Below, piece after piece: positions 6,130 to 9,514 of a stretch of 64,000 nt of DNA. The stretch lies in the sequence record NC_025447.1; one strand, given 5' to 3'. This DNA comes from Escherichia phage 121Q. Each line of letters starts with the position of its first letter. The first letter of the stretch is position 1. Position numbers and translations under genes: made by a program. The notes beneath the pieces are model-generated. The model saw nothing but the letters and a program-made list of their open reading frames with translations, was not told the origin of the DNA and made no database searches.

Positions 6130-6756
6130 ATGGGAAGACAAATAATTGCAATTAACGGAACTATTGGAAGTGGTAAAGATACATTTGGTGAATCTTTTAT
6201 TAATAATGGTTACACACGAATGTCATTCGCAACCAATCTAAAAGATTCAGTTGCTGCCATCTTTGGATGGGACCGTGAAATGCTTGAGGGGTCAACTAAG
6301 GAAAGTCGTAAGATTCGTGAAGAACCGGATCAGTACTGGTGTGATAAGTTAGGTCGTAATGATGTATCCCCTCGATGGGTATTGCAGAATTATGGTACTA
6401 ATATTTTGCGTAAGTATTTTCATAATGATATTTGGGTATTCAGTTTAGAAAAATCAATGCAAGACATAGATGGAAATATCATCATCACTGATTGCCGTTT
6501 TCCAAATGAATTAAAAATGATTAGATCGAATAATGGGACTATTATTGAAGTTCAACGTGTTCTACCACATTGGTATGGTTTGGCTGCCTCTTATAATAAA
6601 GGGGATATTAATATTAAACCAGTTGAACTAGAATCAGTACACGAATCTGAGTGGGCTTGGATTGGAATAAACAATCCTGATATAATTGTACAGAATAACA
6701 GTACTATTGATGATTTACATAAAAAAGCAATGGACATTATTTATTCTAATACATAA
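6130..6756 (+). CDS. P-loop nucleotide kinase, T4 gp1-like dNMP kinase family
   Basis: Walker A GTIGSGKDT near N-terminus (GxxxSGKDT as in T4 dNMP kinase from memory); 208 aa. Confidence 0.5.
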   Translation: MGRQIIAINGTIGSGKDTFGESFINNGYTRMSFATNLKDSVAAIFGWDREMLEGSTKESRKIREEPDQYWCDKLGRNDVSPRWVLQNYGTNILRKYFHNDIWVFSLEKSMQDIDGNIIITDCRFPNELKMIRSNNGTIIEVQRVLPHWYGLAASYNKGDINIKPVELESVHESEWAWIGINNPDIIVQNNSTIDDLHKKAMDIIYSNT

Positions 6757-6850
6757 ATTATAAACAATAAGGACTGGACAATTAAATCCTTCAATAAATA
6801 AGACTATACGAATATATTTCGAATAACCAATTATTTTTGGAGGATTTAAT

Positions 6851-9514
6851 ATGGCAGGAGATCTACTCTCACCTGGCGTTTCCATTTCAGTAACTGATGA
6901 AAGTATGAGTACCGCTGCTGCTCCTGGCACTGTACCACTATTTGTAATCGCTACTGCTGAAGACAAACTTGTCCCAGGAAGCAGTGCAATAGCTGCGGGA
7001 ACTACTAAAGCAAACGCTGGAAAACTACAGCTTCTAACATCACAAAAAAGTTCACTTGATACCTATGGTACACCAATTTTTCAAATGAATAACGGTTCTG
7101 TTGTTCAAGGTGATGAACTAAACGAATATGGCCTACATGCAGTATATTCTTATCTAGGCATTACTAACCGTGCATATGTAATTCGTGCTGATATCGATCT
7201 AGCACAACTAGCACCAAGTGCAGAAGCACCAACTGGCCCAGTATCCAATGGTACTTTGTGGTTTGATACCGCACAATCACAAGTAGAAGCGTATGTAGCG
7301 AAGAAAGATAGTCCAAGCAGTTTTTATGATTGGCAACTTAAGCCAGTAACTATTGTAAGTGCTGAAGAAGTTGAAGATGTAAGTCTAGTAGGTTTAAATG
7401 TTGATGATTTAGTTCTACGTTACAAACCAAGCAATGGTCAGATGCTAATGTATAAACGTTCTGCTTCTGGGCTAGTGCAAATGGAAACTTACCTATCACC
7501 AATTAACAAAGTTCCAGTTGGCTCAACTGTAGAAAAAGGTAACATTTGGATTCGTGATGGTTACACCCAAAATGGTTCAAACTATTTTGGTACTCGTTTT
7601 GTTATTAAACGTTATGCATCCCTAACTCAAGTTTGGAATATTGTACCAGCATATACTGGTAATTCATTCCAAGAAATTGAAGCGAAAAGTGGTGTACTAA
7701 ACAATAGTTATATCGCATCTCGTTTTGATGAAGATAGTAAGAGTTTCTCTTTCTATATTCAAAGTGCAAAACTAACAACAATTAGTGCTCCTGCTTTGCC
7801 ACTTGGTGAAACTATTATTGAACAAGCAGGTGCTGATAGTTATATGACTTTTGTTTATTTGAATAAATCAGTTAAAGTACTAGCAGTTCCACAAGGCGGT
7901 GTTATTAATACCCAAACTATCATCAATAATCTAAATGCAAATGCTGAAATTATTAACGATGGTTTTAAATTTAAACGTGAAACTAATGGTGGTTTAGTTG
8001 TTTCCAATACAAAAGGTTACAGTTTCAAAATCACACAAAGTGGTGATGATATTTTTGCTGAATCTGAACTACAAAAACTAACAGTAGATAGTAACAACTA
8101 CTCTCTAATTAACGTGAATAACTTCCGTGTTAGTTATTCAGTACCACGTAGTGTAGCAAAAGAAGGAACTCTCTGGTATGATTTCGGGAACTCCGATAAT
8201 CTAACTGTAACTATGTATGTTGCTGATGTTGCTAATGATGAATGGGATCTAGTACAAGAAGAAAACAAATATGTACAAGTTGATGAACCAGCGGCTGACC
8301 GTTTAATTTGGGTTTGTCCTTTATCCCAAGGCATTGATGGTTATGATTTCTATCGTAACGTTGATGGTGAATGGGTTAAACTTGACAGTACTGATCAAAG
8401 TACACTAAATGGTATGATTTTCCAAGACTTTAATTTCCCAAGCCAAGTTCCTGCTGCGGCATTGTATCAAAATGGTATGCTTGCAGTTGACCTAGGTAAC
8501 ACTGAAGGTGTTGTTAAGAAAATGGTTAATGGTCAATGGGAAGTTGTTAGTGGTGTAAGTCTTGATGGTGCTGGCCTATTTGGTCGTGCTGCACAACGTC
8601 AACTAGTAGTTGAAGCACTAGCTGCTGTTATTATTGGTAATGATGACATTCGTTCTGAATTTATTGATTTTAACCTAATTTGTGTACCTGGTTACGTTGA
8701 AACACTTGATGAATGTGTAACTTTAAACACTGATCGTAAAGAAACTGCATTTATTGTTACTGACGTTCCAGCACGTTTGAATCCAACTGGAAACGGTAGT
8801 GCTGTACAACAATGGGCTACTAATGCTAACAATGCACCAAGCAACGGTTCAGTTGGTCGTACAACTGCTTATGATTATGCTGCTCAGTATATGGGTTGGT
8901 GTCTAAGTACTAACGTTGATGGTGAAGAAGTTGCAGTTCCTGGTAGTACTATTGCAATGCGTACATATGCATACAGTGATAGTGTTAGTTATGTATGGTA
9001 TCCACCTGCTGGTACAACTCGTGGTGTTGTAACAAACGCTGCAAGTACTGGTTTTATCAACAGCGAAGGTGAATATCAACCAGTAGTATACAACCAAGGT
9101 CAACGTGACGTTATGTATACTAACAACATTAACCCAATTGCAATGCGTCCTAACCGTGGTTTGCTTGTTTATGGAGATAAAACTCTATCTGCTAATCAAA
9201 CTTCTGCACTAAGTCGTGTTAACGTTGCTCGTTTAGTTGTTTATATTCGTCGTCAACTAGAAATTATTTCCGAACCATTCCTATTCCGTTTGAATACTCC
9301 AAGTACTCGTCAGGAATTTAGTGGTGTAGTTAATAGCTTCTTGGCTGAAATTGTTCAACAACAGGGTCTTTATAACTTCGCAGTGGTTTGTGATGAAAGT
9401 AACAACACCGCAGAGCGTATTGACCGTAATGAACTTTGGATGGATATTGCAATTCAACCAACTAAGAGTATTAACTTCATTTACGTACCAATCCGTATCG
9501 AGAAAACTCAATAA
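6851..9514 (+). CDS. tail sheath protein (T4 gp18-like, enlarged to 887 aa)
   Basis: N-terminal LSPGVSISVTD and C-terminal RNELWMDIAIQPTKSINFIYVPI resemble T4 gp18 termini; strong terminator downstream. Confidence 0.85.
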   Translation: MAGDLLSPGVSISVTDESMSTAAAPGTVPLFVIATAEDKLVPGSSAIAAGTTKANAGKLQLLTSQKSSLDTYGTPIFQMNNGSVVQGDELNEYGLHAVYSYLGITNRAYVIRADIDLAQLAPSAEAPTGPVSNGTLWFDTAQSQVEAYVAKKDSPSSFYDWQLKPVTIVSAEEVEDVSLVGLNVDDLVLRYKPSNGQMLMYKRSASGLVQMETYLSPINKVPVGSTVEKGNIWIRDGYTQNGSNYFGTRFVIKRYASLTQVWNIVPAYTGNSFQEIEAKSGVLNNSYIASRFDEDSKSFSFYIQSAKLTTISAPALPLGETIIEQAGADSYMTFVYLNKSVKVLAVPQGGVINTQTIINNLNANAEIINDGFKFKRETNGGLVVSNTKGYSFKITQSGDDIFAESELQKLTVDSNNYSLINVNNFRVSYSVPRSVAKEGTLWYDFGNSDNLTVTMYVADVANDEWDLVQEENKYVQVDEPAADRLIWVCPLSQGIDGYDFYRNVDGEWVKLDSTDQSTLNGMIFQDFNFPSQVPAAALYQNGMLAVDLGNTEGVVKKMVNGQWEVVSGVSLDGAGLFGRAAQRQLVVEALAAVIIGNDDIRSEFIDFNLICVPGYVETLDECVTLNTDRKETAFIVTDVPARLNPTGNGSAVQQWATNANNAPSNGSVGRTTAYDYAAQYMGWCLSTNVDGEEVAVPGSTIAMRTYAYSDSVSYVWYPPAGTTRGVVTNAASTGFINSEGEYQPVVYNQGQRDVMYTNNINPIAMRPNRGLLVYGDKTLSANQTSALSRVNVARLVVYIRRQLEIISEPFLFRLNTPSTRQEFSGVVNSFLAEIVQQQGLYNFAVVCDESNNTAERIDRNELWMDIAIQPTKSINFIYVPIRIEKTQ

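What the first reader, a model, noticed from the sequence alone, without database searches (positions are those of the whole stretch)
6130..9514. Mosaic gene order relative to T4
T4-like modules are recognisable (dNMP kinase, sheath, tube, gp25, gp5, lysozyme, td) but arranged differently: sheath and tube are followed by unknown acidic proteins and the MoxR module rather than portal and prohead genes, td abuts the fibre locus, and the baseplate genes follow the P2-like W-J order. This points to a deeply diverged lineage in which module boundaries are good places to look for novel insertions.
Basis: inference. Interest (0 to 1): 0.35.

Follow-up and report, generated by a model that had tools for sequence, protein, structure and literature searches.

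The report
Known jumbo coliphage tail gene cluster

Summary
dNMP kinase, sheath, tube, gp25-, gp5- and gp6-like genes, lysozyme, td and a MoxR–VWA pair are all present, and they lie in an order unlike T4's.

It is not a new or mosaic arrangement. The window is 97–99.8% identical to, and collinear with, published Asteriusvirus jumbo coliphages such as vB_EcoM_E9.1, PBECO4, phAPEC6 and G17. In the genus-level relative Erwinia phage pEa_SNUABM_50, 45 of 52 ORFs occur in the same order and orientation.

The literature already covers the main points:
- These "Rak2-like" phages are described as distant T4 relatives whose T4 homologues are unevenly spread along the genome.
- Their ATAAATA late promoter has been reported.
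- Their MoxR–vWA–peptidase pair has been reported.
- Strong synteny among Asteriusvirus genomes has been reported.

The interleaving reflects separate transcription units. Structural genes sit behind TAAATAA-type motifs. Auxiliary genes (dNMP kinase, MoxR–VWA, td, ClpA) sit behind sigma-70-like extended −10 sites. The units are bounded by hairpin terminators.

The only insertion of note at a module boundary is a sporadically distributed free-standing homing-endonuclease-like gene between the gp25-like and gp6-like genes, which is also a known kind of element. Verdict: already known, low interest.

The parts
4959..5765 (+). Neck / head-tail adaptor protein, T4 gp13-like
   Evidence: phrog_211 1.4e-41; tblastn and phmmer against T4 gp13, 3e-6 and 6e-8. 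TAAATAA motif 22 nt upstream.
5842..6756 (+). Small ORF plus dNMP kinase (T4 gene 1-like), its own unit behind an extended -10 site (TGATATAAT at 5806)
   Evidence: Pfam DNMK 1.3e-11; phmmer against T4 gp1 3.4e-5; promoter-like motif; hairpin terminator-like site at 5774-5790 after the neck gene.
6851..9514 (+). Tail sheath, 887 aa, gp18-like C-terminal domain with a lineage-specific N-terminal 700 aa
   Evidence: Phage_sheath_1C. T4 gp18 match covers only residues 707-877. 70 phage records match at least 80% of the protein's length. phAPEC6 gp277c, 97 kDa, 68% MS coverage. Terminator-like hairpin at 9521-9542.
9910..12573 (+). Three tandem tail-tube-family paralogues (228, 258 and 364 aa)
   Evidence: phrog_4542 twice, phrog_13438 and phrog_45. 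T4 gp19 hits phrog_45 and phrog_4542. Proteins of matching mass (25.07, 28.76 and 40.42 kDa; gp275c, gp274c, gp273c) are in the phAPEC6 virion.
12573..13001 (+). Head completion protein, T4 gp4-like, nuclease fold
   Evidence: Tn7_TnsA-like_N 2.1e-16; phrog_218 1.8e-40; T4 gp4 8e-14.
13032..18011 (+). Seven clade-specific proteins, two of them very acidic (16250-17230 and 17232-17627); function unknown
   Evidence: Each matches only a family made of Rak2-like phage proteins, four of which PHROGs labels 'virion structural protein'. pI values. The phAPEC6 virion MS list for this interval includes gp267c, gp268c and gp270c.
18327..21151 (+). MoxR-like AAA+ ATPase plus metallopeptidase-VWA partner (chaperone/co-chaperone pair)
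   Evidence: Weak direct AAA and AAA_3 hits. Full-length homologues at 30-33% identity carry PF07726 and PF07728. The family profile best matches midasin AAA domains, 1e-21. Partner: DUF2201_N 2.7e-34 and DUF2201 VWA-like 7e-21. The pair is described in PMC7824862. Consensus sigma-70 site at 18130-18157; terminators at 19672-19699 and 21162-21187.
21246..23691 (+). Unit of small acidic ORF, 218-aa ORF, SLOG/DprA-like ORF and intron-less thymidylate synthase
   Evidence: Thymidylat_synt 7.7e-102. T4 td matches in two pieces because the T4 gene carries an intron. TGATATAAT at 21218. Bidirectional terminator-like hairpin at 23694-23723.
23726..36502 (-). Fibre / receptor-binding locus: 654-aa unknown, DUF4376 protein, 1841-aa fibre, 298-aa protein, pectate-lyase-like depolymerase, 383-aa tail protein
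   Evidence: E9.1 annotation. This is the most variable block against pEa_SNUABM_50: the depolymerase matches only in its first ~109 aa.
36577..38805 (+). Three structural proteins (165, 202 and 366 aa) transcribed divergently from the fibre locus
   Evidence: phrog_14394. phAPEC6 gp250c and gp251c are in the virion. ATAAATA/TAAATAA motifs on both strands of the 74-bp divergent intergenic region.
38835..42158 (-). NUDIX hydrolase, T4 gp15-like tail sheath stabiliser (447 aa), 501-aa protein of a family labelled virion structural
   Evidence: NUDIX 2.6e-15; T4-gp15_tss 2.3e-20; phrog_11591.
42236..44545 (+). ClpA-like double AAA+ unfoldase behind an extended -10 site
   Evidence: TIGR02639 ClpA 7e-227, below the equivalog cut-off; Pfam AAA_2 and ClpB_D2-small; TGATATAAT at 42208.
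44583..58095 (-). 3333-aa giant virion protein and 1153-aa gp6/J-like baseplate wedge protein
   Evidence: phrog_10938; phrog_10646 plus phrog_219 (the T4 gp6 family) 1.2e-20. phAPEC6 gp245 (382 kDa) and gp244 (131 kDa) are in the virion.
58100..58864 (-). Free-standing homing-endonuclease-like gene inserted between the gp25-like and gp6-like genes
   Evidence: phrog_559 1.6e-57, phrog_9084 1.4e-23; DUF723 and DUF2726. A 769-bp segment (58112-58880) stands in place of 33 bp in E9.1. Present only in JP4 and JNE01 among the records that align across this site.
58934..63953 (-). gp25/W-like wedge protein, 162-aa lysozyme, 887-aa gp5-like spike (OB, beta-helix, C-terminal lysozyme), and the start-truncated 750-aa virion protein
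   Evidence: GPW_gp25, Phage_lysozyme, Phage_base_V plus DUF2345 plus lysozyme; T4 gp25 1.4e-7 and gp5 2e-12; phrog_13211 and phrog_11190. The single exact TATAAATA in the window is at 59850-59857(-).

Best explanation
The window is part of the virion-gene region of an Asteriusvirus, a PBECO4/121Q/phAPEC6-like ('Rak2-like', Iyer group 2.2) jumbo myovirus of E. coli.

Its gene order is the fixed, vertically inherited order of that clade, which is a distant sister lineage of the T4-like phages. It is not a recent mosaic.

The interleaving of structural and non-structural genes reflects separate transcription units. Structural genes (neck, sheath, tube paralogues, fibres, gp15-like, giant protein, lysozyme/baseplate) sit behind a T4-late-like TAAATAA/ATAAATA motif, presumably read with the clade's gp55-like sigma factor. 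The auxiliary units sit behind sigma-70-like extended -10 promoters: small ORF plus dNMP kinase, MoxR-VWA-peptidase, small ORFs plus td, and ClpA-like. Most units end in hairpin terminators.

What is shown: the homologies, the collinearity and the motif positions. What is inferred: the timing classes and the assembly-chaperone role of MoxR-VWA and ClpA.
For: Identity and collinearity:
- Window 6000-16000 is 99.8% identical to vB_EcoM_E9.1; 16 records are at least 99% identical and 34 cover at least 80% of it.
- Window 54000-64000 is about 97% identical to the same set of phages.
- One blastn alignment joins window 1-58111 to E9.1 at 98.7%, and a second joins 58881-64000 at 96.7%. The only break between them is the 769-bp nuclease-gene insertion.
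- The E9.1 annotation lists the same genes in the same order.
- The spacing between the two searched segments is 48,011 bp in phAPEC6 and 48,001 bp in G17, against 48,000 bp in the window.
- In Erwinia phage pEa_SNUABM_50 (genus Eneladusvirus), 45 of 52 window ORFs have hits at 28-79% amino-acid identity, all in the same order and orientation.

Depth of the arrangement: Stenotrophomonas phage CM1, far more distant, keeps only the sheath-tube-gp4 and gp25-gp6-giant sub-blocks.

Literature:
- Distant T4 relationship and uneven distribution of T4 homologues (PMC5259590).
- ATAAATA late motif before structural genes in CBB and GAP32, and a gp55-like sigma factor.
- Virion proteome of phAPEC6 gp240-gp280, which covers this block (PMC7247149).
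- MoxR-vWA-peptidase pair and ClpA in group 2.2 jumbo phages (PMC7824862).
- Strong synteny across Asteriusvirus genomes (PMC13070987).

Motifs in the window:
- TAAATAA: 12 of 22 occurrences fall in the 4% of the window that is non-coding (0.9 expected). Ten of these lie 12-116 nt upstream of a gene on the same strand, nine of them upstream of a structural gene.
- TGnTATAAT: 7 of 16 occurrences are non-coding (0.6 expected), six of them upstream of the auxiliary units.
- Terminator-like hairpins: 21 found against 9.4 +/- 3.7 in shuffles, lying at unit ends.
Against: - No record in the phage collection matches the whole window at 99% or more. Patches at 1-1000, 37-39 kb, 48-50 kb, 52-54 kb, 56-57 kb and 59-61 kb are 4-22% diverged from E9.1. 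Allelic exchange within the genus therefore does occur, but it does not change gene order.
- Promoter classes are inferred from motif position only. No expression data for this phage were examined.
- The exact T4 late motif TATAAATA occurs only once.
Confidence: 0.95

Rival explanations
1. Recent mosaic assembly: the modules were brought together by horizontal exchange in this phage or its immediate ancestors, so the module junctions are recombination scars.
For: Patchy divergence against E9.1, from 0% to 22% per kb. The fibre locus is clearly exchangeable: the depolymerase matches pEa_SNUABM_50 only in its N-terminal ~109 aa.
Against: The same order and orientation holds for 45 of 52 ORFs in a different genus, with similar divergence in the structural and auxiliary modules (mostly 45-75% amino-acid identity). 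34 independent genomes cover each tested segment. The divergent patches lie inside genes and do not coincide with module junctions.
Confidence: 0.03
2. The gp25(W)-gp6(J) adjacency and the spike-W-J order are the ancestral arrangement of contractile tails, which this lineage retained. On this reading T4's dispersed arrangement is the derived state, and no P2-like module was acquired.
For: The gp25-like then gp6-like then giant-protein order is kept even in the very distant Stenotrophomonas phage CM1. From established knowledge (not tested here), P2 has V-W-J-I and Mu and T6SS have the equivalent W-like/J-like neighbours, whereas in T4 gene 25 lies about 32 kb from gene 6.
Against: No formal ancestral-state reconstruction was done. 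The protein after gp6-like is a 3333-aa giant with no detectable gpI/gp7 similarity. This reading complements the best explanation and does not compete with it.
Confidence: 0.6
3. Assembly artefact: a chimeric contig joining unrelated phage fragments.
For: None found.
Against: There is a continuous 58-kb alignment to an independently sequenced isolate, and the same junctions occur in dozens of isolates from several continents.
Confidence: 0.01

Closest known systems
Asteriusvirus jumbo coliphages (PBECO4 NC_027364, 121Q, vB_EcoM_phAPEC6 MK817115, vB_EcoM_G17, vB_EcoM_E9.1 PP886230, JP4)
   Same: 97-99.8% nucleotide identity in the tested segments and identical gene order across the 64 kb. The gene products map onto the phAPEC6 virion proteome, gp240-gp280.
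   Different: This genome carries a 769-bp nuclease-gene insertion at 58112-58880, shared only with JP4 and JNE01, and a few diverged patches, for example 22% divergence in the first kb.
Other Rak2-like / Iyer 'group 2.2' jumbo myoviruses (Erwinia Eneladusvirus pEa_SNUABM_50; by literature RaK2, GAP32, CBB)
   Same: 45 of 52 ORFs are collinear and in the same orientation, including the dNMP kinase-sheath-3x tube-gp4 run, MoxR-VWA, td next to the fibre locus, ClpA, the giant protein, and gp6-gp25-lysozyme-gp5.
   Different: 28-79% amino-acid identity. The fibre and depolymerase genes and several small ORFs differ, and there is no nuclease gene between the gp25-like and gp6-like genes.
Escherichia phage T4 (Tequatrovirus) late region
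   Same: Homologues of gp1, gp4, gp5 (lysozyme domain), gp6, gp13, gp15, gp18, gp19, gp25 and td are present. A dNMP kinase gene is embedded among virion genes, as T4 gene 1 is. The late-promoter-like motif resembles TATAAATA.
   Different: - The order is scrambled: sheath and tube are not followed by portal and prohead genes, gp15 is far from gp18, gp25 is next to gp6, and td is next to the fibre genes.
- There are three tube paralogues.
- The sheath is 887 aa against 659 aa in T4.
- The gp5-like spike has its lysozyme at the C-terminus instead of the middle.
- td has no intron.
- MoxR-VWA and ClpA genes are present.
P2-type baseplate cluster V-W-J-I (established knowledge; not fetched here)
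   Same: The spike (OB plus beta-helix), then a W/gp25-family protein, then a J/gp6-family protein, lie on one strand.
   Different: A separate lysozyme gene and, in this genome, a nuclease gene are intercalated. The J-like protein is 1153 aa and does not reach Pfam Baseplate_J. The next gene is a 3333-aa giant with no gpI similarity.

Membership tests
Genus Asteriusvirus (PBECO4-like jumbo myoviruses) | High nucleotide identity to genus members (ICTV genus guideline of roughly 70% or more over the genome) | tested here: met
   97-99.8% identity to PBECO4, phAPEC6, G17 and E9.1 in the tested segments, and 98.7% over 58 kb to E9.1. Only the 64-kb window could be tested, not a whole genome.
Genus Asteriusvirus (PBECO4-like jumbo myoviruses) | Collinear gene order with genus members | tested here: met
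   equal spacing of the two tested segments in phAPEC6 and G17; published Mauve synteny (PMC13070987).
Genus Asteriusvirus (PBECO4-like jumbo myoviruses) | Genome of about 350 kb and a virion with hair-like fibres | not testable with these tools
   Only a 64-kb window is available. The morphology is known from phAPEC6.
T4-like phages (Straboviridae / Tevenvirinae) | T4 core virion genes present | tested here: met
   gp4, gp5, gp6, gp13, gp15, gp18, gp19 and gp25 homologues are detected, some only through profiles. The literature states that the clade lacks several T4 core genes.
T4-like phages (Straboviridae / Tevenvirinae) | Conserved T4 late-gene order (53-5-6-7...13-14-15-16-17-18-19-20-...-23) | tested here: not met
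   The window order gp13, gp1, gp18, gp19x3, gp4 ... td ... gp15 ... gp6, gp25, gp5 corresponds to T4 positions 93.6, 74.6, 98.5, 100.6, 76.9, 143-145, 95.4, 81, 115.4 and 78 kb.
P2-like baseplate module (V-W-J-I) | W (GPW_gp25 family) immediately followed by J (Baseplate_J / gp6 family) | tested here: met
   GPW_gp25 1.2e-8. The 1153-aa neighbour hits phrog_219, the family of T4 gp6, at 1.2e-20. The two genes are adjacent in E9.1 and pEa_SNUABM_50 and are separated here only by the inserted nuclease gene. Pfam Baseplate_J itself was not matched.
P2-like baseplate module (V-W-J-I) | gpI / gp7 / TssG-like protein after J | tested here: inconclusive
   The next gene encodes a 3333-aa protein with no Pfam hit and only a clade-specific PHROG.
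MoxR-VWA chaperone pair | AAA+ ATPase of the MoxR / AAA_3-AAA_5 (midasin/dynein-related) class | tested here: met
   The direct Pfam hits are weak and fall short of Pfam's criteria (AAA 3.9e-4 at the whole-protein cut-off but with no single matched stretch passing; AAA_3 7e-3, below its cut-off). Homologues at about 31% identity over more than 92% of the length carry PF07726 and PF07728. The family profile's best solved-structure matches are midasin AAA domains, 1e-21.
MoxR-VWA chaperone pair | Adjacent VWA-domain partner (here fused to an N-terminal metallopeptidase-like domain) | tested here: met
   DUF2201_N 2.7e-34, DUF2201 VWA-like 7e-21, VWA 5.5e-4. The same architecture is described for group 2.2 jumbo phages (PMC7824862).
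Free-standing homing endonuclease genes of phages | Nuclease-family ORF with presence/absence polymorphism at one precise intergenic site among close relatives | tested here: met
   phrog_559 and phrog_9084. A 769-bp segment stands in place of 33 bp in E9.1. It is present in JP4 and JNE01 and absent from the other records that cover 91-93% of the segment, and from pEa_SNUABM_50.
Free-standing homing endonuclease genes of phages | Site-specific cleavage of the endonuclease-free allele and gene conversion | not testable with these tools
   This needs a cleavage or co-infection assay. In JNE01 the gene is as diverged (~79%) as its flanks (~80%), so there is no sign of recent transfer.

The most novel reading that the evidence does not exclude
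The MoxR-like ATPase and the thymidylate synthase, both encoded between tail and fibre genes and both detected by mass spectrometry in purified phAPEC6 virions (gp265c and gp259c), are genuine virion-associated components or dedicated tail/baseplate assembly factors in this lineage. This would echo the old, disputed claim that T4 baseplates contain thymidylate synthase. On this reading their position next to the fibre and tail genes is functional and not accidental.
Probability: 0.12. Interest if true: 0.4.

Novelty: already known. Interest (0 to 1): 0.07.

Why it matters
It matters little as a discovery. The lineage, its distant relation to T4, its conserved gene order, its late-promoter motif and its MoxR-vWA and ClpA genes are all published.

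The practical value is in triage. Windows from Rak2-like jumbo phages will keep producing "T4 modules in the wrong order" flags, and these can be dismissed by one nucleotide search against known phages.

The check also corrects a database annotation: the homologue of 19727-21151 is labelled 'HNH endonuclease' in E9.1 but is a metallopeptidase-VWA protein. It also documents a sporadic nuclease-gene insertion that splits the otherwise universal gp25-gp6 gene pair.

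Tried and rejected
- Rfam scan of the whole window at gathering thresholds found no RNA family, and the tRNA scan found none.
- The exact T4 late promoter TATAAATA occurs once against about 10 expected. It is therefore not the general motif here; TAAATAA/ATAAATA is.
- Direct phmmer of the MoxR-like ATPase against solved structures gave nothing, and NCBIfam gave nothing. A profile built from homologues was needed.
- Pairwise comparison with T4 failed to detect the tube and gp6 homologies. They were linked through PHROG families that T4 gp19 and gp6 also match.
- phmmer of the inserted nuclease against solved structures gave only a chance hit.
- I tested whether that nuclease gene shows recent horizontal transfer, that is, higher identity than its flanks in the diverged phage JNE01. 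It does not: ~79% against ~80%.
- I looked at the 395-bp gap between sheath and tube (9515-9909). It holds a terminator, a 41-codon ORF annotated in E9.1, and a TAAATAA motif; nothing unusual was seen.
- I considered and rejected recent mosaic assembly and contig chimerism (see the rival explanations).

Full report
**What the window is.** A megablast of window 6000-16000 against 50,697 phage records found 58 matching records. Sixteen are at least 99% identical and 34 cover at least 80% of the query. The best is Escherichia phage vB_EcoM_E9.1 at 99.8%, followed by SP27, phAPEC6, JP4, UB, G17, slurp01 and PBECO4. Window 54000-64000 matches the same set at about 97%.

A direct blastn of the whole window against the corresponding 64 kb of E9.1 gives one alignment of window 1-58111 at 98.7% and a second of 58881-64000 at 96.7%. 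The only break is a 769-bp segment present in the window where E9.1 has 33 bp. The distance between the two searched segments is 48,011 bp in phAPEC6 and 48,001 bp in G17, against 48,000 bp in the window. The window is therefore a piece of an Asteriusvirus, a PBECO4/121Q-like 'Rak2-like' jumbo myovirus of about 350 kb.

**Checking the observation.**
- 6130-6756 is a dNMP kinase: Pfam DNMK 1.3e-11 and phmmer against T4 gp1 3.4e-5.
- 6851-9514 is the 887-aa tail sheath: Phage_sheath_1C 1.7e-14. Only its last ~170 residues align to T4 gp18, at 36%.
- Three tail-tube-family paralogues follow at 9910-10596, 10691-11467 and 11479-12573 (phrog_4542 twice, then phrog_13438). T4 gp19 itself matches phrog_4542 at 5e-10, which links them to the T4 tube even though pairwise comparison fails.
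- 12573-13001 is a gp4-like head completion protein with a TnsA-like nuclease fold.
- 13032-18011 encodes seven clade-specific proteins. Two are extremely acidic: pI 4.05 with 29% D+E, and pI 4.10.
- 18327-19652 is an AAA+ ATPase whose direct Pfam hits are weak. Its full-length homologues at about 31% identity carry the MoxR-type families PF07726 and PF07728. A profile of the family best matches the midasin AAA domains among solved structures, 1e-21.
- Its neighbour 19727-21151 has DUF2201_N (metallopeptidase-like, 2.7e-34) and a VWA-like DUF2201 domain (7e-21).
- 22762-23691 is thymidylate synthase (7.7e-102).
- On the minus strand lie a 654-aa unknown protein, a DUF4376 protein, an 1841-aa fibre, a pectate-lyase-like depolymerase and a tail protein.
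- Next come a gp15-like sheath stabiliser (2.3e-20) and a ClpA-like ATPase.
- Then a 3333-aa giant virion protein and a 1153-aa protein that hits phrog_219, the family of T4 gp6.
- Then a GPW_gp25 protein, a 162-aa lysozyme and an 887-aa gp5-like spike.

**Comparison with T4.** I fetched T4 positions 70-169 kb with annotation and compared the window proteins with it. In window order, the T4 counterparts lie at about 93.6 kb (gp13), 74.6 (gp1), 98.5 (gp18), 100.6 (gp19), 76.9 (gp4), 143-145 (td), 95.4 (gp15), 81 (gp6), 115.4 (gp25) and 78 (gp5).

T4 has 57A-1-3-2-4 | 53-5-6-7-8-...-13-14-15-16-17-18-19-20-...-23, with gene 25 about 32 kb from gene 6 and td in the nucleotide-metabolism region.
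- Sheath and tube are not followed by portal and prohead genes.
- td lies next to the fibre locus.
- gp25(W) lies next to gp6(J).

The stated coordinates, 6130-9514, cover only the first two genes of what is a window-wide remark.

**Is the arrangement new or mosaic? No.** The E9.1 annotation lists the same genes in the same order. The phAPEC6 paper's virion proteome runs gp240-gp280 through exactly this block, with masses matching the window's proteins. Examples are sheath gp277c at 97 kDa, gp244 at 131 kDa, gp245 at 382 kDa, gp241 at 95.9 kDa, td gp259c and ATPase gp265c (PMC7247149).

In Erwinia phage pEa_SNUABM_50, a different genus (Eneladusvirus), 45 of the 52 window ORFs have tblastn hits at 28-79% identity, all in the same order and orientation. 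The exceptions are five small ORFs, the inserted nuclease gene, and one 83-aa ORF. The one clearly remodelled block is the fibre/depolymerase locus.

In the much more distant Stenotrophomonas phage CM1, only the sub-blocks sheath-tube-gp4 and gp25-gp6-giant survive, and the gp15 homologue lies about 1.4 kb from the sheath gene, closer to the T4 arrangement. The arrangement is therefore old, clade-wide and vertically inherited.

**What is already published.**
- Buttimer et al. [quoted passage not shown] They conclude that the relationship is distant (PMC5259590).
- The same paper reports an ATAAATA motif before structural genes in CBB and GAP32 and a gp55-like sigma factor.
- Iyer et al. 2021 describe group 2 jumbo phages as arising by genome expansion from T4-like predecessors. 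They describe the MoxR-vWA pair with an N-terminal metallopeptidase, and ClpA, as likely virion-assembly chaperones (PMC7824862).
- A 2026 paper shows strong synteny among Asteriusvirus genomes (PMC13070987).

**How the arrangement works.** The upstream regions in the window show two motif classes.
- TAAATAA occurs 22 times, 12 of them in the 4% of the window that is non-coding (0.9 expected). Ten of those lie 12-116 nt upstream of a same-strand gene. Nine of the genes are structural: neck, sheath, tube 1, tube 2, fibre, 36577, 40653, the giant protein and the lysozyme. The tenth is the small ORF at 21246.
- TGnTATAAT extended -10 sites occur 7 times in non-coding DNA (0.6 expected). Six of them lie upstream of the NUDIX gene, the small-ORF plus dNMP-kinase unit, the MoxR-like gene region, the unit ending in td, and the ClpA-like gene.

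Terminator-like hairpins are enriched, 21 against 9.4 +/- 3.7, and sit after the sheath, tube 1, the ATPase, the VWA gene and td. The apparent mosaic is thus an interleaving of late structural units with independently promoted auxiliary units, as in T4, where gene 1 sits beside genes 3, 2 and 4. The temporal classes are inferred from motifs, not measured.

**Insertions at module boundaries.** The one clear case is 58100-58864(-), a 254-aa protein.
- It matches phrog_559 ('HNH endonuclease', 1.6e-57) and phrog_9084 ('homing endonuclease', 1.4e-23), plus DUF723 and DUF2726.
- It has two N-terminal cysteine/histidine repeats and a C-terminal 'IEYDGEQH' motif.
- It splits the gp25-like/gp6-like pair.
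- It is present at the same site only in JP4 (97-98% identical) and JNE01. It is absent from the other records that align across the site, and from pEa_SNUABM_50.
- In JNE01 it is as diverged as its flanks (~79% against ~80%), so there is no sign of recent transfer.

This is an ordinary free-standing homing-endonuclease-type gene, of the kind T4 itself carries, for example segC between genes 5 and 6.

**Verdict.** The finding is already known and of low interest.

The most novel reading that the evidence leaves open concerns td and the MoxR-like ATPase. Both are encoded next to tail and fibre genes and both were detected in phAPEC6 virions, so they may truly be virion-associated or dedicated assembly factors. 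I give this about 12% probability.

Noticed in passing
window 58100-58864 (-), insertion 58112-58880: A free-standing homing-endonuclease-like gene (254 aa; two N-terminal Cys/His repeats plus a C-terminal PD-(D/E)xK-like 'IEYDGEQH' motif) splits the gp25-like/gp6-like pair. It is present only in JP4 and JNE01 among the related phages that align across the site. E9.1 has 33 bp at this position.
   Followed up: yes
window 59870-62533 (-) and 59345-59833 (-): The gp5-like spike has the domain order OB fold (23-116), DUF2345 beta-helix (278-329), lysozyme at the extreme C-terminus (765-882). In T4 gp5 the matching lysozyme segment is central (about residues 190-324). A second, stand-alone 162-aa lysozyme gene lies immediately downstream.
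   Followed up: partly
window 9910-12573 (+): Three tandem tail-tube-family paralogues (228, 258 and 364 aa) follow the sheath gene. Proteins of matching mass are all in the phAPEC6 virion proteome. Which one forms the tube, and which act as initiator or terminator-like proteins, was not resolved.
   Followed up: partly
window 22762-23691 (+) and 18327-19652 (+): The phAPEC6 homologues of thymidylate synthase (gp259c, 3 peptides) and the MoxR-like ATPase (gp265c, 6 peptides) were detected by MS in purified virions (PMC7247149). This recalls the old claim that T4 baseplates contain thymidylate synthase. It could also be contamination.
   Followed up: no
window 16992-18157 (+): A cluster of six near-perfect sigma-70 consensus sites (11-12 of 12 matches; a perfect TTGACA-16-TGnTATAAT at 18130-18157), all on the + strand. 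They lie inside and just after the acidic-protein genes and upstream of the MoxR-like gene.
   Followed up: no
window 19727-21151 (+): The E9.1 record annotates the homologue as 'HNH endonuclease', whereas Pfam shows DUF2201_N metallopeptidase plus a VWA-like domain. This is probably a propagated misannotation. Likewise the 14154-14696 homologue is labelled 'Hsp70 heat shock protein' in E9.1 and PHROGs, but has no Pfam support.
   Followed up: partly
window 3518-3994 (+): A macro-domain protein with weak similarity to the DarG ADP-ribosyl glycohydrolase (NCBIfam 3.5e-8), annotated 'phosphatase' in E9.1 and 'Appr-1-p processing enzyme' in pEa_SNUABM_50. It could be a counter-defence against ADP-ribosylating toxins.
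   Followed up: no
window 29197-30233 and 30696-31649 (within fibre gene 26619-32144, -): Internal tandem repeats of about 414 and 510 bp at ~69% identity inside the 1841-aa fibre gene, seen as off-diagonal blastn hits.
   Followed up: no
window 1-1000, 37000-39000, 48000-50000, 52000-54000, 56000-57000, 59000-61000: Patches that are 4-22% diverged from E9.1, embedded in sequence that is otherwise about 99-100% identical. This indicates allelic exchange within the genus without any change of gene order. The first kb is the most diverged (22%).
   Followed up: partly
window 59850-59857 (-): The exact T4 late-promoter octamer TATAAATA occurs only once in 64 kb, against 10.4 +/- 3.4 expected. It lies in the 36-bp gap upstream of the stand-alone lysozyme gene.
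   Followed up: partly
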